From: Myxococcales bacterium
Lineage (GTDB): Bacteria; Myxococcota_A; Polyangia; Nannocystales; Nannocystaceae
Direction of reading: 5' to 3'
Length of the DNA stretch: 64,000 nt
Assembly: GCA_020633295.1 (NCBI GenBank)
Contig: JACKDW010000001.1
Span: forward strand, 1,341,828 to 1,405,827
Position numbers and translations under genes: made by a program. The notes below the pieces were generated by a model that was not told where the DNA came from, did no database searches, and worked only from the letters and a program-made list of their open reading frames with translations. This document shows positions 3,001 through 51,646 of this stretch, in pieces; the stretch's first letter is position 1, and the number at the start of each line of letters is the position of its first letter.

Positions 3001-5392
3001 ACGACCCGGCGCTGCAGGGCGAGAGCCTGGTCGCGCGCGGCGTGCTGCTCGAGCACGCCGGCGACAGCGTGGGCGCCGCGAGCGTGCTCGACCGCGCGCT
3101 CGCGGACCACGGCGCGCGGCTCGACCCGTGGAACGCGACGCGCGCGCGGCTCGTGCTCGGTGGAGCCTCGTCCTTCGAGGACATGTCCGTGAAGCCATCT
3201 CGGTCCTCGAGCGCTCGAGCCGGCGCAGCGGCGCGGGCCTGCGCGCGCGCCCGAGGCCGCCGCCGCGCGCGGGCGCGGCGAGCGTGCTCAGGGCCTGCGA
3301 GGCGCTGCTCGGGCGCGGCGCGGAGAGCCGCCAGCGCTTCGAGCAGGCCCAGGAGCGGCTCGCCGACCACGACGTCGGGCGGCTGACGCGGGCGCTGCAC
3401 TCGCTCGCGCGCAACCTGGTGTTCGTCGAGGAGGGCGCGCTCACGGGCGCGCTCGAGCTCGAGTCGACGCTGTCGCGGTCGCTCGAGAGCGCGGCGCTCG
3501 GGGTCTCGAGCACGCCGCTCCTGCTGCGGCCGATGTGGCTGCTGCGGGCGCGCCAGCGGCTCGCGATGCTCGAGACCTCGCTCGATCGCGCGGGCGGCCG
3601 CACGGGCGGGCAGGAGCGCGATCGCATGCGCGCCGAGCTCGACGACGCGCTCGCGGACCTCGCGACCAACGCGCGCGAGCAGCCGGCGCTCGGCTGCCAC
3701 CTGCGCGTGCTGGAGGCCGCGCGCGCGCGCCTGGATCACGCCGAGGGTCGCGACGCGCGCGACCTCCAGCGCGCCCTCGAGATGCTCGGGCGGGCGCAGA
3801 GCGCCGCGTTCTCGGTCGACAGCCCGTGGGCGCTGTACGAGGTGCACCGCGAGCGCGCGCGCCTGCTGGCGACCATGGGGCACGGCGCGGCGGCGCGGCG
3901 CGAGGCGAACGCCGCGCTGCAGCTCGCGCTCGAGCAGGGCTGGGCGCCGCGCGCGAGGCGAGTCCGCGCCGAGTTCGAGCTCGTGGATCCGGCCCCGCGC
4001 GTGCTCGGGGGCTCGCGGGACTTCGAGACCGGCGAGGCCGCGGTGCCCACGCCCGGCCGGCTGCTCCGTCGCGGCGCGGCCGGGGGCAGCGCGCTCGATC
4101 GCTGCTTCGACTCGCTGCTCGAGGTCAGCCGCACCGCGGTCGCGCGCGGCGACGCGGAGCTGCGAGAGCAGGCGCGGCACGTGCTCGACGCGCTCATCTC
4201 GGCGATGGGGGCCGAGCGCGCGCTGCTGTTCGTGCACGAGGAGGGGCGCGACGAGCCGCGCGAGGGCGAGCCCGGCGAGCTCGGTCAGCTCCGGCGCATC
4301 GCGGGACGCGACAGCCGCGGGCGCGACCTCGAGGTCGGCGAGCGCTACAGCACGACGCTCGTCGAGCACGTCGTGGCCACGCGCGCGGTCCGGGTGATCG
4401 GCGGGACCGACGAGACCGAGCGCGCGCCGTCCGAGAGCGTCGAGTCCCTCGAGCTCAAGAGCGTCGTCGGGGCGCCGCTGCTCGTGCAGGACCGCCTCAT
4501 CGGCGTGGTGTACCTCGACAACCGCCTCGTCCGCGGGCTGTTCGGCCCGGAGGATCTTCGCCTGCTCGTCGCCATGTGCAACCACATCGCGATCGCGCTC
4601 GAGAGCTCGCGGCTGACCCGCTACATGCGGATCACGCGGGACCAGGCGCTCGAGGCGAGCAGGCTCAAGAGCGCCTTCCTGACGCACATGAGCCACGAGC
4701 TGCGGACGCCGCTCAACGCGGTCATCGGCTACAGCGAGATCCTCGCGGAGGACCTGGCGACGCGGGCCCCCGACGCGCTGCCGGATCTGACGCGCATCGG
4801 CGACGCGGGCAAGCACCTGCTCGAGCTGATCAGCGACGTCCTCGACCTCGCCAAGCTCGAGTCCGGCAAGCTCGAGCTGCATCGCGCCCGCTTCGAAATC
4901 GGCCCGCTCGTGGAGGAGGCGGTCGACTCGGTCAAGGGCGAGCTCGCGCGCAACGACAACGACCTGCAGGTGAGCTGCCCGCCCGGCATCGGCGAGCTGT
5001 GCTCCGACCGCCAGAGCGTGCTCCGAGTGCTGCGCGCGGTGCTCGGCAACGCCGCCAAGTTCACGCACCGCGGCGTCATCGAGCTCGACGTCCGCTGGCA
5101 CGCGCGCCACGACGGCAAGCACCTCGCGTGCGAGATCCGCGACTCCGGCATCGGCATGGCGCCCGATGACGTCGAGCGGCTGTTCACCGAGTTCTCGCAG
5201 GCGGACATGTCGACGACGCGCGAGTACGGCGGCGCGGGCCTCGGCCTCGCGATCAGCCAGCGGCTGTGCAAGCTGCTCGGCGGCTCGATCCACGTCGAGA
5301 GCCAGGAGGGCCGCGGCTCGACCTTCACGATCGTGCTGCCGGACAGCGAGCCGGAGCGAGCGGAGCGCGGGCTCTCGCCCGCGACGAGCTGA
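59..5392 (+). CDS. Multidomain Ser/Thr protein kinase - AAA/STAND-like ATPase - helical (TPR-like) region - GAF - histidine kinase (HisKA + HATPase_c)
   Basis: One open frame (track ORF 41..5392; first ATG at 59). Kinase motifs HRDLKPSNIL, DFG and SAPE. C-terminal H-box HMSHELRTPLNAVIGYSE and G-boxes DSGIGM and GGAGLGLAIS. A GAF-like block precedes the H-box. Between ~2818 and ~3160 the protein-like signal moves to other frames (see findings). Confidence 0.9.
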   Translation: MQPHLEIPGIELDRSVGQGAASLVFRGRCARAGADKVVAVKLFTPAHHDSAEALRRRVIREAALLASLDHPGLAEIYEVGEHEGRPYIVMEFIEGRSLASTLATRDGPLPTPRVLSVAHAVAEVLDHVWRRGLVHRDLKPSNILIDSSGTVKVIDFGFAELWSRDPGDWSADAGNQRPVGTFTYSAPEQTGILRRPVDGRADLYALGAVLYECATGRPPFVADDVGSLLHMHAAVRPRDPRERNPAVSSGLAAIIARLLRKDPEERYQSASALLADLARVDVISGQLDALPSGGAVDDASPAELVEERVDPPLGVLSAPSGDGMSPLLRAREPELRELLSRWRRTMAGRGCFVLIEGSPGAGGQPLCAGLRERASASERAIVLRGRCDEELHLAFGPFAQALVNFMSDAAGGRASILARRGLIRAAAGERRAALARLTPRLAGLLGVPATSVAAREGLTAEQVAAVVRVLCELAKSGSPVLLVLEDGQWIDESSREVLTALRRRLEGPGAPALMVVCTTRDRERGDARTGDARTDDARADDAADEDGDEVVRLRPLLRSAARRVISDCLGGRPVDAALVRAVLARSGEQPETIVECVRTMLSAGILRPAWGAWEFESDRLRELGLPGDMASLVLHRLADVDAGDRDVLRWSAVLGARFSLAHLPSIIERDSDAVVRAVENGTRAGVIERVHGDEYGFVHPSIRAALLGELSGTQRRACHLRIAAALDAIPTLTAAQLFGRARHYAEALDHETARRVYETNRSAGALALRTHAPEHAYQFLAAALQARMVGGLGEDLDLYETLGEVCLRTARYRQAEAHLRHLLERRDEPAARASVCATLASVHAAAPDVSSARASIKRGLEELDPPQATPDGPGLTGAVARLRRSVVRAAACARARDGDQRRALAADVALRRWAAGFELAEPTTSARSSTSARRSARRGGCRGARARAPRHHRRAGLGRARLLRARGRAVRARRGGGRAARRPGAAGREPGRARRAARARRRQRGRRERARPRARGPRRAARPVERDARAARARWSLVLRGHVREAISVLERSSRRSGAGLRARPRPPPRAGAASVLRACEALLGRGAESRQRFEQAQERLADHDVGRLTRALHSLARNLVFVEEGALTGALELESTLSRSLESAALGVSSTPLLLRPMWLLRARQRLAMLETSLDRAGGRTGGQERDRMRAELDDALADLATNAREQPALGCHLRVLEAARARLDHAEGRDARDLQRALEMLGRAQSAAFSVDSPWALYEVHRERARLLATMGHGAAARREANAALQLALEQGWAPRARRVRAEFELVDPAPRVLGGSRDFETGEAAVPTPGRLLRRGAAGGSALDRCFDSLLEVSRTAVARGDAELREQARHVLDALISAMGAERALLFVHEEGRDEPREGEPGELGQLRRIAGRDSRGRDLEVGERYSTTLVEHVVATRAVRVIGGTDETERAPSESVESLELKSVVGAPLLVQDRLIGVVYLDNRLVRGLFGPEDLRLLVAMCNHIAIALESSRLTRYMRITRDQALEASRLKSAFLTHMSHELRTPLNAVIGYSEILAEDLATRAPDALPDLTRIGDAGKHLLELISDVLDLAKLESGKLELHRARFEIGPLVEEAVDSVKGELARNDNDLQVSCPPGIGELCSDRQSVLRVLRAVLGNAAKFTHRGVIELDVRWHARHDGKHLACEIRDSGIGMAPDDVERLFTEFSQADMSTTREYGGAGLGLAISQRLCKLLGGSIHVESQEGRGSTFTIVLPDSEPERAERGLSPATS

Positions 5393-5517: not shown

Positions 5518-5537
5518 ACATGACTATTAAGACATGT
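5518..5537. promoter_or_regulatory. Inverted repeat ACATG-N10-CATGT (site A: ACATGACTATTAAGACATGT)
   Basis: Perfect 5+5 inverted repeat in an AT-rich intergenic island. 19/20 identical to the site at 40073..40092. A 9/10 copy lies at 5592..5611. Confidence 0.5.
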
Positions 5538-5643
5538 ACACCGCGGGCCGCTGGTCTGGCGCTCGCGCGGCGCCCCGGCCCTGCGCATGTGACATGTGCC
5601 TGTACACATGACCCATTAGACACCCATATGATCTCGCGCTCCC

Positions 5644-5755: not shown

Positions 5756-5784
5756 TTGGATACTGATTTGAAGTTCAGTATCCT
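5756..5784 (+). promoter_or_regulatory. Putative imuA promoter (-35 TTGGAT, 17-nt spacer, -10 TATCCT) overlapped by an SOS/LexA-type palindrome GATACTGA-N8-TCAGTATC
   Basis: The palindrome at 5759..5782 has perfect 8-bp arms. Its core CTGA-N8-TCAG resembles the CTGT-N8-ACAG class, and it contains GTTCAG as in the reported Myxococcus LexA box. It lies 23 nt upstream of the imuA start. Confidence 0.55.
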
Positions 5785-5804: not shown

Positions 5805-6623
5805 GTGATGGGTGGGCTCAAAACGCGCGCCAACGCGCATATTCACGCACTCTGGGCGAATTCGTCGCAGGAGGAACAGGCCCGCGAAGACGCGGAGCGA
5901 CGCTCCGAGCGGGCGACAAAACAAACACCTGTCAGCCTCGCCGTCGCCGAGGATCTGACTCGAGATCGGGACGATGCGCATGCACGCGCGCCGGGTGAGC
6001 CGGAGCGCGCGCGCGAGGGGCTCGGGGCGCTCTGTCGACCCGGCAAGCTCCTCGAGCTCTCGGGCGACGGCGACGCGGCGCTGCTGACCACCGCCGCCGC
6101 CATCGTCCGCGAGGCCCAGCGCGAGCGCGAGACCACCGCGTGGGTGCAGCCCACGGGCGGCCCGCTGTTCCCGCCCGACCTCGCCGAGGCGGGCGTCGAC
6201 CTCGAGTCGCTGATCGTCGTCCACGTGCCCCGCCCCGCCCCGAGCGGGCGACCCAAGAGCGCCGCGCTCGAGCTGGCGCGCGCCGCCGAGCTCCTGCTGC
6301 GCTCGGGCGCGTTCGGCCTCGTCGTGCTCGACCTGTGCGAGGCGCCGCCGCCTCGCAGCAGCCGCCGCGGCGCCACCTGGCAGGCGCGCCTGCTCGCGCT
6401 CGCGCGGCAGCACCACAGCCGCCTCGTCATCCTGACCCAAAAGCCCGATCACCATGACTCCGCCGGACCGCTCGTCAACCTCCGCGTCGCGCCCCGCCGC
6501 GTGCTCCGGGCCAGCCCTCGCGGGCTCGGCTTCGAAGTCATCCCGCGTGTCCTCAAGGACAAGTCGGGTGACGCGCCGGCGCTCTCGCCCGACGCGCGCC
6601 GCGGCCCCTGGGGTCTCACCTGA
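5805..6623 (+). CDS. imuA: ImuA, RecA/SulA-like component of the inducible mutagenesis cassette
   Basis: Track ORF 5805..6623 (GTG 5805 or ATG 5808). RecA-fold-like blocks GKLLELSGDG...TAAAIVREAQ...TAWVQP...GVDLESLIVVHV...LLRSGAFGLVVLD. Sits directly upstream of imuB and dnaE2. Confidence 0.8.
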   Translation: MMGGLKTRANAHIHALWANSSQEEQAREDAERRSERATKQTPVSLAVAEDLTRDRDDAHARAPGEPERAREGLGALCRPGKLLELSGDGDAALLTTAAAIVREAQRERETTAWVQPTGGPLFPPDLAEAGVDLESLIVVHVPRPAPSGRPKSAALELARAAELLLRSGAFGLVVLDLCEAPPPRSSRRGATWQARLLALARQHHSRLVILTQKPDHHDSAGPLVNLRVAPRRVLRASPRGLGFEVIPRVLKDKSGDAPALSPDARRGPWGLT

Positions 6624-6672
6624 GCGCGCCGGGCCGCCGTCGCTGCCGCTGACGCCGACCCGCGATCGGACC

Positions 6673-8346
6673 ATGACGACCCCTCGGGCCTCGCCTGCGC
6701 GCGTGGCCTGCCTCGCGCTGCCCTCCCTGCCGCTGCAGCTCGCGCTGCGCGAGCGGCCGGCGTGGCGCGACCAGCCCGTGGTGGTGGTCGACAAGGAGGG
6801 CCCCCAGGGCGTGGTGCTGTGGGCCAACGCGCTCGCGCGCGCGGCCCGGATCACCCGCGGCACGCGGTACGCCGCCGCCTGCAGGGCTCGTCCCGGCGCT
6901 GCGCGCCGAGGTCGCGCGCGGGCGCCCGCGCTCGAGGAGGCCGGCGCGGCGCTGCTCGCCGCGCTGCAGCGCTGCTCGCCGCGCGTCGAGGCCTACGCCC
7001 TGAGCGCCCAGGATCTTCTGGCTCGACCCCTCCGGCCTCGAGCGGCTGTTCGGAGATCTCGAGCGCTGGGGCCTCGCGGTCGTCGCGGCCGTCGCCGAGT
7101 TTCGGAGCCCGACGCGACCGTCGTCATCGGCTTCACGCGCTTCGCCACCCTCGCGCTCGCGCGCCTGCGCGCGGCGCGACGCGCCTGCGCCCGTCTTGAT
7201 GCTCCAAGAGCCAGCCGAGGAGCGCGCGGCGCTGGACCGCGTGCCGCTCGCCGCGCTGCCCCGCGAGGACTTCCCGCCGCGCCTGCGCGAGAGACGCTCG
7301 CGCCCCTGGGCGTGCGCACGCTCGGCGACTTCCTCGCCCTGCCCGCGCCGGCGCTGCGGCTCCGGTTCGGGCGCGCCGCCGCCGAGCTGCACGCGCGCGC
7401 GCGCGGGCAGACCTTGGACCCGCTCACGCCGGCGGCGCTGCAGGAGCCCCTCGAGGTCAGCCGCGTCGTCGATCCGCCCGACGACCACCACGAGCGCCTG
7501 CTGTTCATCCTCAAGGAGGCGCTCGCCGAGCTGCTCGGCAAGCTCGACGCGGGCGGCGCGAGCGAGCGCGACGCCCTGCGCGCGCTGACCGTCGAATTCG
7601 AGTTCGACATGTCCATTGAGACATCCGATCTCGAGGACAGGCCCCAGGCCGCGGGCGACCCCGGGCGCCTCGAGCTGCGCCCGGGCGCGCCCACCCGCGA
7701 CCTGATGCAGCTCGTCGACCTGCTGCGCCTGCGGCTCGGCGAGCAGGCCACCCGCGGCGGCCTCCCGGCGCCTGTGCGCGCGCTGACCGTCACGGGCGAG
7801 CCCGAGCGCCTGCGCGACGCCCAGGTCGCGCTGCTCCCGGGGCAGCGCCCGCGTCGTGATCCCGAGGCCGTCGCCGCCGCGCTCGCGCGCCTGCGCGCCG
7901 CCTTCGGCGAGCAGGCGGTGACGCGCGCGCGCCTGCGCGACGCGATCCTCCCCGAGGCGAGCTTCACCTGGGAGCAGACGCTGCGCCCGAACGCGCGCCC
8001 CGCCCCGCCCGCGGATCCTTGGCCAGCCAACGATCACGATCCGCTGCAGCGCGCGCCGCTGCTGCGCCGGGTGTTCCCGCGTCCGCTGCCCCTGCCCGCG
8101 CCGCCCGACGGCGCGGCGCCCTGGCGCGTCCCGGAGCGCCCGCCGTTCGACATGTCCAACAAGACGTTTGAGCCGAGGATGACGACCGTGCGCCGCTTGC
8201 ACGGCCCGTTCCGCGTCAGCGGCGGCTGGTGGGCGCGGACCGTCGAGCGCGACTACTACTACGCCGAGACCGCCCGCGGCGCGCTGATGTGGATCTTCTA
8301 CGACCGCCCGCGCGACCGCTGGTTCTGGCACGGCCTGGTCGACTGA
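6673..8346 (+). CDS. imuB: ImuB, Y-family-polymerase-like protein of the mutagenesis cassette (multiple internal frame switches)
   Basis: ATG at 6673 within track ORF 6454..8346. N-terminus MTTPRASPARVACLALPSLPLQLALRERPAWRDQPVVVVD is typical of ImuB. The middle and C-terminal regions are colinear with ImuB (LGVRTLGDFLALPAPALRLRFG). Between ~6880 and ~7270 the plausible protein alternates between frames 1 and 2. Confidence 0.8.
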   Translation: MTTPRASPARVACLALPSLPLQLALRERPAWRDQPVVVVDKEGPQGVVLWANALARAARITRGTRYAAACRARPGAARRGRARAPALEEAGAALLAALQRCSPRVEAYALSAQDLLARPLRPRAAVRRSRALGPRGRRGRRRVSEPDATVVIGFTRFATLALARLRAARRACARLDAPRASRGARGAGPRAARRAAPRGLPAAPARETLAPLGVRTLGDFLALPAPALRLRFGRAAAELHARARGQTLDPLTPAALQEPLEVSRVVDPPDDHHERLLFILKEALAELLGKLDAGGASERDALRALTVEFEFDMSIETSDLEDRPQAAGDPGRLELRPGAPTRDLMQLVDLLRLRLGEQATRGGLPAPVRALTVTGEPERLRDAQVALLPGQRPRRDPEAVAAALARLRAAFGEQAVTRARLRDAILPEASFTWEQTLRPNARPAPPADPWPANDHDPLQRAPLLRRVFPRPLPLPAPPDGAAPWRVPERPPFDMSNKTFEPRMTTVRRLHGPFRVSGGWWARTVERDYYYAETARGALMWIFYDRPRDRWFWHGLVD

Positions 8347-8348
8347 TC

Positions 8349-8432
8349 GCGACCTCCTCCGCGACCTCCTCCGCGACCTCCTCCGCGACCTCCTCCGCGA
8401 CCTCCTCCGCGACCTCCTCCGCGACCTCCTTC
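8349..8432. repeat. Tandem repeat, 12-bp unit GCGACCTCCTCC x7
   Basis: Six exact copies plus one degenerate last copy, read directly. Fills most of the 117-bp imuB-dnaE2 spacer. Confidence 0.95.
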
Positions 8433-8463
8433 TTCTCGCCCTCCACCCCCTCACCGGATCGCC

Positions 8464-11739
<3,276 letters not shown>

Positions 11740-15319: not shown

Positions 15320-16765
15320 TCAGCTCGCCGGGTCGTCGCCCGCGGACCGCTCAGCGCCCGCGGACCGCTCGGCGCCCGCGAGCTCCTCCGCCTCGTCCAT
15401 GATCGCGCCGAACACCGCCTCCGCGTCGTAGCCGCAGGTCGCGGTGTCGTAGCTCGTGTTCTTGACCACGAGCTTCTTGTAGCGCTCGTAGGTCTTCGGC
15501 TTCTGCAGCAGCTCGATGAACTCCAGGTACTTCTTGTGGTTGGCGAAGAAGTCGCCCGCGAGCAGGTAGTGCCCGGCCGCGAGCGCGTCCTTGTGCTCCT
15601 CGTGCAGCAGGTTCGCCGCGCCGCCCGCCTGCGCGAAGTTGATGGAGACGGGGTTGTAGAACAGGTGGATCGCGCGGTCGACGAGCTTGTACGCGCCGTT
15701 AATCTCGGCGTACGCGGCGTCGATCGCCGCGCGCCCGGCCTCCGCGCCCTCGCGGAGCTGCACGCCGACCGCCCCGGCGACGAGCTGCGCGCTCTTGATC
15801 GAGAGGTACACGCCGCTGGCGAGGATCGGATCGATGAACGCCGCCGCGTCGCCGACGATCGCGTAGCGGTCGCCGTACTTGCTCTCGGAGTAGTACGAGT
15901 AGTTGCCGTTGAACGCGAGCGGCATCGCGACGCGCGCGTCCTTGATGACCCTGGCGACGAAGGGCGACGACAGGAGCTCCTGCCGGTACAGCGCCTCCTG
16001 CCAGTCCTCGACGCCCTGCTCCTGGAGCTTCGCCTTCTGCTCGCGGATGTAGCCGTGGTTGAGCACGCAGCCGATGCTGATGCGCCCGCGCGCGACCGGG
16101 ATCACCCAGATCCAGCCCTTCTTCTCGCCGCCGAGGTAGACGATCTGCAGGAGCCCCTCGTCGATGCCGCCGGCCATGTCCGCGCCGAGCCAGTGGGTCG
16201 AGAGCGCCGCGCGATCGAGGTCGCGGTGCGGCCGCTTCGTCCGCAGGCGCCCGGCGAGGAAGGTGTCGCGCCCGGTCGCGTCGACGAAGAAGCGCGCCTC
16301 GTGCTCGCGCGCGACGCCCTCGTCGTCGACCGAGCGCACGAGCACGCCGCCGCCCTCGCGCTCGAGCTCGACCTCCGTGACCTTGGTCCGCTGGCGCACC
16401 GCGACGCCGAGCCGGCTCGAGTTCTCGAGCAGCACGTTGTCGAACTCGGCGCGGCGGACGTGGAACGAGAGCGCCTCCGGGCCCTTGATCACATGACCAA
16501 AGCACCATGTCGTTTGAGACCGGCCGTCGACGTCGACGAAGCGGACGCCGGGCTTGCGCACGAAGCGGCGCTCGAGCCGCTCCATCACGCCGAGCTCGCG
16601 CAGGATCGGGTAGCAGAACGGCAGCAGCGACTCGCCGACGTGCTCGCGGGGGAACTGCGCCTTCTCCAGCAGGGTCACCTTGTGGCCCGCCTTCGCGAGG
16701 TAGGAGGCGGTGGTAGACCCGGCGGGGCCGCCCCCGGCGATGACGACGTCGACTTGCTCTCTCAT
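15320..16765 (-). CDS. FAD-dependent oxidoreductase, flavin-dependent halogenase / geranylgeranyl-reductase-like family
   Basis: 481-aa ORF. N-terminal dinucleotide fold VDVVIAGGGPAGSTTASYLAKAGHKVTLLEK. Later GDAAAFIDPILASG motif. The C-terminus carries an 18-bp duplication (GAERSA x2). Confidence 0.85.
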   Translation of the reverse strand: MREQVDVVIAGGGPAGSTTASYLAKAGHKVTLLEKAQFPREHVGESLLPFCYPILRELGVMERLERRFVRKPGVRFVDVDGRSQTTWCFGHVIKGPEALSFHVRRAEFDNVLLENSSRLGVAVRQRTKVTEVELEREGGGVLVRSVDDEGVAREHEARFFVDATGRDTFLAGRLRTKRPHRDLDRAALSTHWLGADMAGGIDEGLLQIVYLGGEKKGWIWVIPVARGRISIGCVLNHGYIREQKAKLQEQGVEDWQEALYRQELLSSPFVARVIKDARVAMPLAFNGNYSYYSESKYGDRYAIVGDAAAFIDPILASGVYLSIKSAQLVAGAVGVQLREGAEAGRAAIDAAYAEINGAYKLVDRAIHLFYNPVSINFAQAGGAANLLHEEHKDALAAGHYLLAGDFFANHKKYLEFIELLQKPKTYERYKKLVVKNTSYDTATCGYDAEAVFGAIMDEAEELAGAERSAGAERSAGDDPAS

Positions 16766-17178: not shown

Positions 17179-17329
17179 TCACCCGCGCGAGCGGCCCTGA
17201 CGGCGCGCCGCCTCGGTCAGCACGTAGACGATCTGCGCGTTGACGCTGCGCAGCTCGTCGGCGGCCCAGCGCTCCAGCGCCGCGTGCAGCCGCGGGTCGA
17301 GCCGAAGGAAAACGTTTCTTTTGGGTCAT
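17179..17329 (-). CDS. Ribbon-helix-helix (Arc/CopG-like) DNA-binding protein with an apparent 1-nt frameshift near codon 7
   Basis: ATG at 17329 (MTQKKRF...). The convincing sequence [43 protein letters not shown] lies in the adjacent frame, which has a TGA overlapping the ATG. The shift falls at the run CGTTTTCC. Located downstream of the SPFH gene. Confidence 0.6.
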
Positions 17330-17427
17330 GTTGAAGACCTCGCGTGCGCGCCGACGCGCGCGGCGGCGGGCGGACGCGCCGCGCGACCGCGAGCGCGCCC
17401 GCGGCGGCGGCGAGCCGGCGCCGCACG

Positions 17428-49502: not shown

Positions 49503-50144
49503 TCAGTACTCGAGCGTCTGCTTCACCTTGACCGAGCCCTTCTTCGGCTTGTCGAACTTCGCCTTCGTGATCTGCTTCTTGATACAGGACTCGAACTTCT
49601 TGTCCTCGTCCCCGCTCGACTCCGCCTTGAACCCGCTCGCGCGCCGCGTCGACTTGATCGTGAACGACGCCGTGAGGCTCCCGGAGAACTCCTCGGCGCG
49701 CCCGCGCGCCTCGTCCAGGCAGCCCTCGAGCGCGGGCTTGAGCTGCTCGATCGACCCCTTGACGCTGTCCTCCCCGAGCTGACCCGAGACCTCGAGCGCG
49801 CCCAGCTGCAGCGGCTTGATGACCGGCTCCGGCGGGAGATCGGGCGTCAGCGGGAGGTCCGGCGGCGTCGCGGTGTCGGTGTCGTCCCCGCCGGTCGTCT
49901 CGCCCGCCCCCTCGAGCTCGGGGAAGAACGGACGTCCCGTCACGGTCTCGAACAGCGCCAGCGCCTTGTCCTCGTAGATGAACGCGGCCGCGACGACGAG
50001 GCCGAGCGCCGCGAGGATCAGGACCAAAAAGATGTAGAGGGTCGAGCGCCGCGAGCCGAGATCGATCGCCTTGGGGCGCGAGGCCCTGATCTCGGCCTCG
50101 GTGGCCCCCTCAAACTCGTCAATGAACGTCCCTGGGCGCTTCAT
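49503..50144 (-). CDS. Single-pass membrane protein with a small C-terminal beta domain (TonB-C/AgmX-like, tentative)
   Basis: ATG at 50144 within track ORF 49503..50384. TM helix LYIFLVLILAALGLVVAAAFIY. Lys-rich C-terminal domain of lower GC. Confidence 0.65.
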   Translation of the reverse strand: MKRPGTFIDEFEGATEAEIRASRPKAIDLGSRRSTLYIFLVLILAALGLVVAAAFIYEDKALALFETVTGRPFFPELEGAGETTGGDDTDTATPPDLPLTPDLPPEPVIKPLQLGALEVSGQLGEDSVKGSIEQLKPALEGCLDEARGRAEEFSGSLTASFTIKSTRRASGFKAESSGDEDKKFESCIKKQITKAKFDKPKKGSVKVKQTLEY

Positions 50145-50470
50145 CCGGCTCCGCAGCTCGCTCGGAGTGTGCGTCTTTTCGGCCGATAACGCCAGCCGGG
50201 CCGCGGCGCTCACCACGCGGTGGGCGAGACGACGCTCCCCTCGCCGCGCGGCCGACGTCCGGGTGGCCGCGCGCGCGCGTCCGCGATCCTCCGCGCGCCG
50301 ATCGAGGGTCGATCGCGTGTCGCGGTCGATCGAGGACCTCCACACCGAGGTGGGGCCATGCGCCACAGGCTGCGCGCGCGTCACCCCGCACGCGCTCGCA
50401 GCACCAAAAGGACATGTCTATTTAGACATATTGAAACCCGAACGAGACCTCGCGCTGCTACGCTCGTGCC

Positions 50471-51646
50471 ATGAAGACGAGAGCAGCGGCGATCGGTGCC
50501 GCGGTCGCCATCGCGATCGCGGCGTGCGGTGACAACTCGCAGGAGGGCAGCTCCGCGAGCGCGACGAGCACGGGCACGGAGACCGAGTCGGGGACCGCGT
50601 CGAGCGACGCGCAGACGAGCCAGGGCCCCAACGCCTCGATCACCGCGACCGACCCGAGCTCCGGCATGTCGGCGTCGGCGACCGGCACGGACGCGACCGA
50701 GGGCACCGCCGCGAGCTCGGACTCCTCGGCGACGGAGCTGAGCGCGACGGCGGCGACGATGACGATGACCGACCCGACGATCACGGACCCGGAGACGTCG
50801 ACCACCGGGGACCCGACGATCGACCCCTCGACCGAGACCGACGACCCCTCGACCACCGACGCGACCACCGACGGCGACACCGACGCGACCACCGGCGACA
50901 ACACGACGGGCGCGCCCGACACGGACACCGACACGGACACCGACACCGGCGGCCTCGACGGGCTGTGGCTCATCACCGTCCACGACCTCACCACCCCGTC
51001 GAGCGTGTGGCGCATCGACATCGAGACCGGCGAGGGCCTGCAGCTGTGCGAGCTCGACGTCAACCACAACTACAACACGAGCACGTTCTCGCGCGACAAC
51101 ATCCTCTACGCCGCGAACGCGACGACCAAGGATCTCGAGATCATCGACCCGTGCACCTGCGCGCGCACGGTGGTCGGCCCGACCGGCGTCAACGCGCTGC
51201 CGGGCATCACCGCCGACCAGCTGTTCGGGCTCTACGGGCTCGAGACGACCCAGGACATCTTCGTCGACATCGACACCGACAACGGCATGGCGACGCCGAT
51301 CGGCGCGCTCGGGATCAACTGGGGCACCGGCGGGCTCACCTGGTCGGACGCGCTCAACGACACCTACGCGATCAACGGCAGCGACGATCGGCTCTACGTC
51401 ATCGACCACATTACCGGCATGGCGAACCAGCTGATCCAGACCAACTACAACTTCGGCAGCGTCGGCATCGAGTACCACTCGGCGACCGAGCAGCTGTTCG
51501 CGTGCTCCAACGACGGCGATCTGCTCGAGGTCGACATCGACACGGGCTCGGTCACGTCGATCGGCCCCATGGGGCTCGCCGGCGGCATCAAGTGCGACAA
51601 CCTCGCGGCGCCCTGGGCCGGCATCGCGTGCGTCGACAACCCGTAG
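50471..51646 (+). CDS. Lipoprotein with a Ser/Thr/Asp-rich linker and a beta-propeller-like C-terminal domain
   Basis: 391-aa ORF. Lipobox AIAIAAC and a DTDTDTDT microsatellite (about 50920..50950). The C-terminal part is non-repetitive and of normal composition. Confidence 0.75.
   Translation: MKTRAAAIGAAVAIAIAACGDNSQEGSSASATSTGTETESGTASSDAQTSQGPNASITATDPSSGMSASATGTDATEGTAASSDSSATELSATAATMTMTDPTITDPETSTTGDPTIDPSTETDDPSTTDATTDGDTDATTGDNTTGAPDTDTDTDTDTGGLDGLWLITVHDLTTPSSVWRIDIETGEGLQLCELDVNHNYNTSTFSRDNILYAANATTKDLEIIDPCTCARTVVGPTGVNALPGITADQLFGLYGLETTQDIFVDIDTDNGMATPIGALGINWGTGGLTWSDALNDTYAINGSDDRLYVIDHITGMANQLIQTNYNFGSVGIEYHSATEQLFACSNDGDLLEVDIDTGSVTSIGPMGLAGGIKCDNLAAPWAGIACVDNP

What the first reader, a model, noticed from the sequence alone, without database searches (positions are those of the whole stretch)
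5518..5611. Recurring intergenic inverted repeat ACATG-N10-CATGT (sites A and A')
Site A at 5518..5537 is ACATGACTATTAAGACATGT. It is 19/20 identical to 40073..40092 (ACATGACTTTTAAGACATGT). It closely resembles 50413..50432 (ACATGTCTATTTAGACATAT), which is an almost perfect 20-bp palindrome: ACATGTCTA-TT-TAGACATaT. A second copy of the geometry lies at 5592..5611 (ACATGtgcctgtacaCATGa). Further copies lie at 33385..33404 (perfect) and 45578..45597 (9/10). All are intergenic. For an i.i.d. model at about 70% GC I estimate far fewer than one perfect ACATG-N10-CATGT per 64 kb, and three perfect copies are present. The shared AT-rich spacer wCTwTTwAGA in three sites suggests an operator for a dimeric DNA-binding protein. 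Alternatively it could be a conserved RNA hairpin placed just after long genes.
Basis: seen in the sequence. Interest (0 to 1): 0.6.

Follow-up and report, generated by a model that had tools for sequence, protein, structure and literature searches.

The report
PadR-type operator palindromes in a myxobacterium
The recurring 20-bp palindrome is real and conserved across the myxobacterial family Nannocystaceae; it most likely binds a two-subunit PadR-type regulatory protein rather than forming an RNA hairpin, so it is a new example of a familiar kind of gene switch.

Summary
The window has four perfect ACATG-N10-CATGT matches against 0.01 expected. Three intergenic sites (5518, 40073, 50412) each lie within one mismatch of ACATGTCT-N4-AGACATGT, and none of 300 scrambled palindromes of the same composition does as well.

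A scan of 185,579 species genomes with the 20-mer gave 32 hits. About 24 fall in Nannocystis, Nannocystaceae or related Polyangia genomes of 60-75% GC. The motif is therefore a conserved, clade-specific element.

The core is ATGT-N8-ACAT, the published PadR-family operator dyad. Copies often overlap in a 14-bp register because each ACATGT hexamer serves two dyads. The same phased arrays lie directly upstream of padR genes in three orthologous groups of Solirubrobacterales (Actinobacteria).

In Nannocystaceae, genes with the motif on their 5' side are lipoproteins in 13 of 25 cases, against 24 of 159 other genes. Mismatches are mostly uncompensated and the RNA hairpins are weak, so the hairpin reading fails.

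Three problems remain. No PadR gene lies near any Nannocystaceae site. About a fifth of the arrays sit between convergent genes. The lipoprotein link did not replicate in a mixed metagenome sample.

Verdict: probable trans-acting PadR-like operator family, a new member of a known kind.

The parts
5518..5537 (.). Site A: strong copy ACATGACTATTAAGACATGT, one mismatch (T6 to A) from the family consensus ACATGTCT-N4-AGACATGT. It lies 125 bp after the stop of a giant GAF histidine-kinase gene and 267 bp before the imuA-like gene.
5592..5611 (.). Site A': degenerate copy ACATGTGCCTGTACACATGA, four mismatches. The C7/G14 pair is swapped symmetrically to G/C. Bases 12-17 coincide with the -35-like hexamer TACACA of the only sigma-70-like match in this intergenic region (-10 TATGAT at 5627-5632, + strand).
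40073..40092 (.). Strong copy ACATGACTTTTAAGACATGT, with the same T6-to-A change as site A. It lies 23 bp after the stop of the STAND Ser/Thr-kinase gene (40116-44306, minus strand) and 513 bp upstream of the ADYC lipoprotein gene (38564-39559, minus strand).
50412..50431 (.). Strong copy ACATGTCTATTTAGACATAT, one mismatch. It sits in a divergent region, 39 bp before the ATG of a DUF6923 lipoprotein gene (50471-51646, + strand) and 27 bp from the called start of 49503-50384 (minus strand).
45580..45599 (.). Weak copy ACATGTCCATAAATGCATCT: good left half, poor right half, four mismatches. It lies in the divergent region between a lipoprotein gene (44476-45474, minus strand) and a trypsin-like protease gene (45712-46689, + strand).
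33385..33404 (.). Perfect ACATG-N10-CATGT, but four mismatches from the family consensus. It is embedded in a 13-bp-stem GC-rich hairpin 32 bp after the vault-protein-like gene. Membership is doubtful and it may simply be a terminator-type hairpin.
17312..17331 (.).

Best explanation
The sites belong to a family of operator dyads, conserved across the Nannocystaceae, for a dimeric winged-helix regulator of the PadR type that is encoded elsewhere in the genome.

Shown: each 20-bp palindrome ACATGTCT-N4-AGACATGT contains the canonical PadR dyad ATGT-N8-ACAT. The hexamer ACATGT holds both ACAT and ATGT, so one hexamer can close one dyad and open the next. This explains why copies line up every 14 bp in arrays of two to four.

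Inferred: one dimer binds per dyad, with neighbouring dimers sharing a hexamer. Binding probably represses or tunes nearby promoters, preferentially those of secreted lipoprotein genes. Site A is a strong copy. Site A' is a weak copy that overlaps a -35-like hexamer upstream of the imuA-imuB-dnaE2 cassette.

Status of each step. Conservation, anatomy, intergenic location and the padR linkage in Actinobacteria are shown. The identity of the binding protein in Nannocystaceae and the direction of regulation are inferred.
For: Excess over chance.
- The motif is far above chance in the window.
- A scan of one genome per species with the 20-mer gave 32 hits. About 24 are in Nannocystis, Nannocystaceae, Polyangia or 'Myxococcales' genomes of 60-75% GC, where this AT-rich 20-mer is very improbable. 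All of them carry the perfect half-site ACATGTCT.
- In 264 kb of such DNA there are 93 sites with four or fewer mismatches. A reversed-motif control gave none at that spacing.

Anatomy.
- Sites occur in a 14-bp register, for example L012 2942/2956/2970, L013 4316/4330 and 6146/6160/6174, and L016 3503/3517/3531.
- Deviations are position-specific. T4 and G5 vary in 1 and 3 cases, against 11-34 deviating pairs at the other six half-site positions. They are also mostly uncompensated, 100 single against 11 compensatory, as expected for independently recognised half-sites.

Match to PadR.
- The core equals the published PadR consensus ATGT-N8-ACAT with the canonical 8-bp separation (PMC3506622; PMC5428041).
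- In L068 a perfect 20-mer plus a third core 14 bp away fills the divergent region between a padR gene and an MFS pump gene.
- Orthologous padR loci at 63-77% protein identity carry the same phased arrays directly upstream of padR: L174/175 and L176-178.

Link to target genes.
- Genes with the motif on their 5' side are lipoproteins in 13 of 25 cases, against 24 of 159 other genes (odds ratio 6.1, p = 1e-4).
- Genes with the motif on their 3' side are at background, 7 of 35. The 5' versus 3' comparison gives p = 0.013.
Against: - No PadR homologue is present in the window or in about 450 kb of Nannocystaceae loci held here (regex; tblastn). None appeared among the families listed for the 43 genes flanking the sites, although only 25 of 60 families were shown. 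PadR regulators are usually encoded next to their operator.
- 6 of 27 arrays lie between convergent genes and only 2 in divergent regions. In tandem regions the arrays sit closer to the upstream stop codon (mean relative position 0.35, p = 0.03).
- Distances to start codons range from 39 to 513 bp, so there is no fixed promoter geometry.
- The lipoprotein enrichment was found post hoc. Several sites come from the same genomes and from paralogous gene families. It did not replicate in a taxonomically mixed metagenome sample, where about 2-3 of 10 were lipoproteins.
- Homologues of the DUF6923 lipoprotein carry an upstream site in only 1 of 6 other loci.
- Some copies have extra flanking complementarity that an operator does not need.
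Confidence: 0.55

Rival explanations
1. A REP-like or architectural palindromic element: a short extragenic palindrome that spreads or is kept in promoter-free spacers. It would be bound by a nucleoid, topology or transposase-type protein, and would not control the adjacent promoter.
For: - Sites are intergenic. They occur in convergent regions at least at background frequency (6 of 27), are rare in divergent regions (2 of 27), and often lie within 25 bp of a stop codon.
- Tandem arrays recall clusters of REP (repetitive extragenic palindromic) elements.
- Three copies have 5-7 extra complementary flanking bases (L035, L011, L020).
- Window sites 5518 and 40073 share the same asymmetric change and are 19/20 identical.
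- Estimated density is roughly one site per 20-40 kb.
- REP-like long hairpins with the same core exist in other metagenome contigs.
Against: - The sequence is conserved across genera and across 58-75% GC, whereas REP families are typically species-specific (established knowledge).
- The conservation profile is position-specific, which does not fit neutral decay.
- There is an asymmetric link to the 5' side of lipoprotein genes.
- The identical architecture acts as a padR-linked operator in Actinobacteria.
- The positional biases are statistically weak (p = 0.03-0.17).
- No transposase was seen next to the sites.
Confidence: 0.2
2. The operator belongs to a different dimeric regulator family, for example a LuxR/GerE-type protein binding a lux-box-like 20-bp palindrome, rather than PadR.
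For: - It has the same 20-bp dyad geometry as lux boxes (PMC4338825).
- The best-conserved bases form TG-N10-CA, at the positions of the lux-box CTG-N10-CAG (the comparison with lux boxes is from established knowledge).
- The identical 20-mer overlaps the start codon of a luxR gene followed by luxI in three Rhodobacteraceae MAGs, and stays conserved while the flanks diverge.
Against: - It lacks the CT-N12-AG signature of known lux boxes.
- No LuxR-type gene lies next to any Nannocystaceae site.
- The PadR consensus matches exactly and comes with a replicated gene linkage.
Confidence: 0.15
3. An RNA hairpin at the 3' ends of transcripts, acting as a terminator or stabiliser.
For: - The sequence is palindromic and many copies lie shortly after stop codons.
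- Site 40073 is followed by a T-run on the + strand.
- Site 33385 forms a strong hairpin of -19.5 kcal/mol.
Against: - The hairpins of the three strong sites are weak, -4.6 to -6.5 kcal/mol in a 72% GC genome.
- No U-tract follows in the direction of the upstream gene. The T-run at 40073 is on the strand with no upstream gene.
- Deviations are overwhelmingly uncompensated.
- No Rfam family matches.
- The terminator scan finds nothing at the sites.
Confidence: 0.05

Closest known systems
PadR-family operators (PadR/padC, LmrR/lmrCD; consensus ATGT-N8-ACAT)
   Same: - The core dyad is identical and has the canonical 8-bp separation.
- A dimeric winged-helix protein is expected.
- In Solirubrobacterales the same 20-mer and the same 14-bp arrays sit between padR and a divergent MFS pump gene, the classic PadR/LmrR layout.
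   Different: - In Nannocystaceae the sites are numerous, scattered, not next to a padR gene, and often far from start codons or between convergent genes.
- The extended half-site ACATGTCT and the overlapping 14-bp arrays were not mentioned in the two PadR papers read here.
Vibrio AphA, a PadR-family global regulator
   Same: It is a PadR-fold protein with many chromosomal targets. The Solirubrobacterales homologues found here carry the AphA-like and Vir_act_alpha_C Pfam signatures.
   Different: The AphA binding motif, as I recall it from memory and did not check here, is not ATGT-N8-ACAT. No orthology to a Nannocystaceae protein was shown.
lux boxes of LuxR-type quorum-sensing regulators
   Same: Both are 20-bp palindromes whose outer bases are critical. 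The identical 20-mer lies at a luxR-luxI locus in Rhodobacteraceae.
   Different: The motif lacks CT-N12-AG, and no LuxR gene is linked to it in Nannocystaceae.
REP/BIME extragenic palindromes
   Same: Both are short extragenic palindromes that are often 3'-proximal, occur in clusters and have many copies.
   Different: This motif is much shorter and is conserved across a whole bacterial family. It has no GTAG head and no associated RAYT (REP-associated tyrosine transposase) gene was seen. It shows a 5'-side bias toward one class of genes.

Membership tests
PadR-type operator | Inverted repeat ATGT-N8-ACAT (canonical 8-bp separation) | tested here: met
   Positions 3-6 and 15-18 of ACATGTCT-N4-AGACATGT give ATGT-N8-ACAT. 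T4/G5 and C16/A17 are the least variable positions. The consensus comes from PMC3506622 and PMC5428041.
PadR-type operator | Linked to a padR gene (autoregulation, or a divergent target such as an efflux pump) | tested here: not met
   No PadR homologue is present in the window or in the Nannocystaceae loci. The feature is met only in the Solirubrobacterales loci L068, L174/175 and L176-178.
PadR-type operator | Bound by a PadR-family dimer | not testable with these tools
   This needs EMSA, DAP-seq or ChIP-seq.
PadR-type operator | Overlaps or adjoins promoter elements of the regulated gene | tested here: inconclusive
   A' overlaps a -35-like hexamer, and 50412 is 39 bp from an ATG. Other copies are 100-500 bp upstream or lie between convergent genes.
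lux box (LuxR-type) | 20-bp palindrome with CT-N12-AG / CTG-N10-CAG | tested here: not met
   The length and symmetry are met, but the bases are AT-N12-AT.
lux box (LuxR-type) | Adjacent luxR/luxI genes | tested here: not met
   The feature is met only in the three Rhodobacteraceae MAGs. No such genes were seen next to Nannocystaceae sites.
REP / BIME elements | Imperfect palindrome of about 20-40 nt, extragenic, in high copy number and clustered | tested here: inconclusive
   The motif is extragenic and clustered. Copy number is only estimated, at about one per 20-40 kb.
REP / BIME elements | Associated RAYT (Y1 transposase) gene and a conserved 5' GTAG | tested here: not met
   There is no GTAG head. 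No transposase family appeared among the families listed for the flanking genes. Whole genomes could not be searched.
Intrinsic terminator | Stable GC-rich hairpin followed by a U-tract on the transcribed strand | tested here: not met
CarH/LitR operator | Tandem 11-bp direct repeats containing TnnACA | tested here: not met
   The period here is 14 bp and the units are dyad-symmetric.

The most novel reading that the evidence does not exclude
A single PadR/AphA-like protein acts as a global regulator in Nannocystaceae, with hundreds of ACATGTCT-N4-AGACATGT sites. It would control a large set of secreted Ser/Thr-rich lipoproteins. Phased multi-dimer arrays placed at both ends of some genes would enable DNA looping or transcriptional insulation. 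That mode is not described for PadR proteins, which normally control one adjacent operon.
Probability: 0.25. Interest if true: 0.55.

Novelty: new member of a known kind. Interest (0 to 1): 0.4.

Why it matters
Nannocystaceae are large-genome predatory myxobacteria that produce many natural products, and almost nothing is known about their gene regulation. This work offers a conserved, easily scanned 20-bp operator family and a candidate regulator class. The operator has a simple rule: ATGT-N8-ACAT, with overlapping copies every 14 bp. Together these give a concrete entry point for mapping a regulon, possibly that of secreted lipoproteins. They also make operator arrays predictable for PadR proteins in other phyla.

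Tried and rejected
- RNA hairpin or terminator. Rejected: the folds are weak, no U-tract follows, changes are uncompensated, and there is no Rfam hit.
- LexA box. The imuA-imuB-dnaE2 cassette downstream of site A has its own separate CTGA-N8-TCAG palindrome at 5758-5783. Motif sites elsewhere are not next to SOS genes.
- CarH operator. A phytoene synthase gene flanked one site, but CarH operators are 11-bp direct repeats.
- Sigma-54 enhancer (UAS) for an NtrC-type activator. Sigma-54-like promoters lie near two window sites, but only 2 of 21 motif-linked genes have one, against 4 of 143 others.
- MarR-like winged-helix gene next to the array in L131. Homologous loci lack the motif.
- Phage origin. 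Only 6 hits were found in the viral collection, which I judged no more than chance.
- Recurrent neighbouring regulator gene. None was found among 43 flanking proteins.
- Footprinting upstream of DUF6923 lipoprotein homologues. A site was present in only 1 of 6 loci.
- Replication of the lipoprotein link in metagenome contigs. The sample was taxonomically mixed and showed no enrichment.
- Literature searches for the sequence or for Nannocystis repeats. They found nothing relevant.
- All-against-all comparison of the loci. It yielded no orthologous intergenic regions for testing site conservation.

Full report
**The observation**

The window is about 72% GC. It carries myxobacterial genes, including an ADYC-domain protein, a STAND Ser/Thr kinase, vault-protein-like domains and an AgmX/PglI tail domain. 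One gene is identical to a gene in the MAG GCA_020431325.1.

The third strong site is 50412-50431 and the weak site is 45580-45599.

The window has four perfect ACATG-N10-CATGT matches against 0.01 expected. With one mismatch there are eight against 0.27 expected. The fourth perfect match, at 16491, lies inside a gene and does not resemble the others.

Three sites share a full 20-mer: 5518, 40073 and 50412. I compared them with 300 scrambled palindromes of the same composition. The real consensus has 3 sites at one mismatch or fewer, against none for the controls. At four or fewer mismatches it has 12 sites, 7 of them intergenic, against a control mean of 0.51 (0.13 intergenic). The strong sites are beyond doubt. 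The weak intergenic ones (5592, 17312, 33385, 45580) exceed chance as a group.

**Conservation**

I scanned one genome for each of 185,579 species with ACATGWCTWTTWAGACATRT. This gave 32 hits. About 24 are in Nannocystis punicea, N. pusilla, Nannocystis sp. RBIL2, or in Nannocystaceae, Polyangia and 'Myxococcales' MAGs.

All of these carry the perfect half-site ACATGTCT, so the family consensus is ACATGTCT-N4-AGACATGT. The window's 5518 and 40073 share a T6-to-A variant.

In 264 kb of this DNA there are 93 sites with four or fewer mismatches at a 4-bp spacer. A reversed-motif control gave none at that spacing.

**Anatomy**

Sites line up every 14 bp in arrays of two to four ACATGT cores. The outer flanks of a 20-mer are only weakly conserved, while the inner TCT/AGA bases are conserved. 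The functional unit is therefore the 20-bp dyad, and arrays are overlapping dyads that share a hexamer.

Deviations from the consensus are strongly position-specific. T4 and G5 change in 1 and 3 cases, while the other six half-site positions show 11-34 deviating pairs each. Deviations are also mostly uncompensated: 100 single, 11 compensatory and 9 non-complementary double changes. This pattern fits two independently read half-sites, not a maintained stem.

**Not an RNA hairpin**

- The three strong sites fold at only -4.6 to -6.5 kcal/mol.
- No U-tract follows them in the direction of the upstream gene. The T-run beside 40073 is on the strand that has no upstream gene.
- Rfam and the terminator scan find nothing at the sites.
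- Site 33385 is different.

**What it matches**

The core is ATGT-N8-ACAT. Published work calls this the canonical PadR-family operator, with 8 bp as the canonical separation (PMC3506622; PMC5428041). ACATGT contains both ACAT and ATGT, so consecutive dyads sharing one hexamer must repeat every 14 bp. This explains the arrays.

A metagenome scan returned a taxonomically mixed set of hits. One of them, L068 at 71% GC, is informative. It carries a perfect 20-mer plus a third core 14 bp away. These lie in the divergent region between a padR gene and an MFS pump gene. Homologues of that PadR protein carry Pfam PF03551 and come from Solirubrobacterales.

Two further orthologous groups, at 63-77% protein identity, carry the same 14-bp phased arrays directly upstream of padR. 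L174 has sites at 2442/2456/2470 and L176 at 2485/2499/2513. This architecture therefore behaves as a PadR-linked operator array in another phylum. That conclusion rests on genomic context, not on experiment.

**Context in Nannocystaceae**

Nearly all strong sites are intergenic. The flanking genes are diverse and no regulator gene recurs among them.

Genes with the motif on their 5' side are lipoproteins in 13 of 25 cases, typically with a lipobox followed by a Ser/Thr/Gly/Asp-rich linker. Among other genes the figure is 24 of 159 (odds ratio 6.1, p = 1e-4). Genes with the motif on their 3' side are at background, 7 of 35. The 5' versus 3' comparison gives p = 0.013. In the window the ADYC, DUF6923 and 44476-45474 lipoprotein genes fit this pattern.

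This finding has caveats:
- The association was found post hoc.
- Several sites come from the same genomes and from paralogous gene families.
- It did not replicate in the mixed metagenome sample.
- Homologues of the DUF6923 gene carry a site in only one of six other loci.

**Evidence that does not fit a simple operator**

- Six of 27 arrays lie between convergent genes and only two in divergent regions.
- In tandem regions the arrays lie nearer the upstream stop codon (mean relative position 0.35, p = 0.03).
- The tests for region type are weak, with p between 0.04 and 0.43 depending on the baseline.
- Several genes are bracketed by arrays at both ends.
- Three copies carry 5-7 extra complementary flanking bases.
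- No PadR homologue occurs in the window or in about 450 kb of Nannocystaceae loci.

A REP-like or architectural element therefore remains a live rival. A different dimeric regulator family also remains possible. The identical 20-mer overlaps the start codon of a luxR gene followed by luxI in three Rhodobacteraceae MAGs. The motif does, however, lack the lux-box CT-N12-AG signature.

**The flagged region itself**

Sites A and A' lie in the 412-bp spacer between a giant GAF histidine-kinase gene (ending at 5392) and a mutagenesis cassette. The cassette has three genes:
- an imuA-like gene at 5805-6623, a weak match;
- an imuB-like Y-family polymerase gene at 6454-8346;
- dnaE2 at 8464-11739, matching NF004225 (error-prone DNA polymerase) at 1227 bits.

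A separate palindrome at 5758-5783 (CTGA-N8-TCAG) is the likely LexA box. A' overlaps the -35-like hexamer of the only sigma-70-like match in the spacer. Whether A and A' regulate this cassette is unknown.

**Verdict**

The most likely mechanism is binding by a trans-encoded PadR-type dimer (confidence about 0.55). Confidence that the site binds some dimeric DNA-binding regulator, of whatever family, is about 0.7. It is a new member of a known kind. The open questions are the identity of the regulator, the copies that lie away from promoters, and the possible lipoprotein regulon.

Noticed in passing
window 5758-5783: Palindrome GGATACTGATTTGAAGTTCAGTATCC (CTGA-N8-TCAG) lies 22 bp before an imuA-like / imuB-like / dnaE2 (error-prone polymerase) cassette at 5805-11739. 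It is probably the LexA (SOS) box of this lineage.
   Followed up: partly
window 39599-39614 (minus strand) and 50456-50471 (minus strand): Two near-consensus sigma-54 promoter elements. TGGTACGGAGGTTGCA lies 40 bp before the ATG of the ADYC lipoprotein gene. TGGCACGAGCGTAGCA points toward motif site 50412 and gene 49503-50384, and overlaps the ATG of the opposite-strand lipoprotein gene.
   Followed up: partly
window 33375-33414: A 13-bp-stem GC-rich hairpin (-19.5 kcal/mol) lies 32 bp after the vault-protein-like gene 30624-33353 and just before a tRNA-Thr/Gly/Ser cluster (33512-34025).
   Followed up: partly
window 38564-39559 (minus strand): The ADYC-domain lipoprotein carries six tandem NGYRM pentapeptide repeats. 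Its 500-bp upstream region is unusually AT-rich for this genome, at about 60% GC.
   Followed up: no
window 40093-40102: A run TATTTTTTTT directly follows site 40073 on the + strand, where no upstream gene is called. It could mark the end of an unannotated small transcript.
   Followed up: no
L015 2673-2692, L017 832-851, L031 1133-1152: The identical 20-mer ACATGTCTTTTTAGACATGT overlaps the start codon of a luxR homologue followed by luxI in three Rhodobacteraceae MAGs. It stays perfectly conserved while the flanks diverge to 68-80% identity.
   Followed up: partly
L044 12604-12623; L179 6127-6146; L013 269-302: A variant dyad ACCTGTCY-N4-RGACAGGT (CTGT-N8-ACAG) also occurs in Nannocystaceae intergenic DNA, sometimes in the same 14-bp register. 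It may be the site of a second regulator.
   Followed up: no
L055 529, L092 2710, L096 7550, L099 10817, L133 1731 and 1785: In metagenome contigs of 65-67% GC, the same core sits at the tip of much longer perfect hairpins with TCCG/CGGA loops. These repeat within a contig and look like a genuine REP-like family in an unidentified organism.
   Followed up: no
L012 694-2936: Two tandem paralogous 339-aa lipoprotein genes in Nannocystis sp. RBIL2 are each followed by a motif array, and the second array fills the whole 53-bp gap to a convergent lipoprotein gene.
   Followed up: partly
window 46680-46753: A tRNA-Lys(CTT) gene starts within the last codons of the trypsin-like protease ORF 45712-46689.
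   Followed up: no
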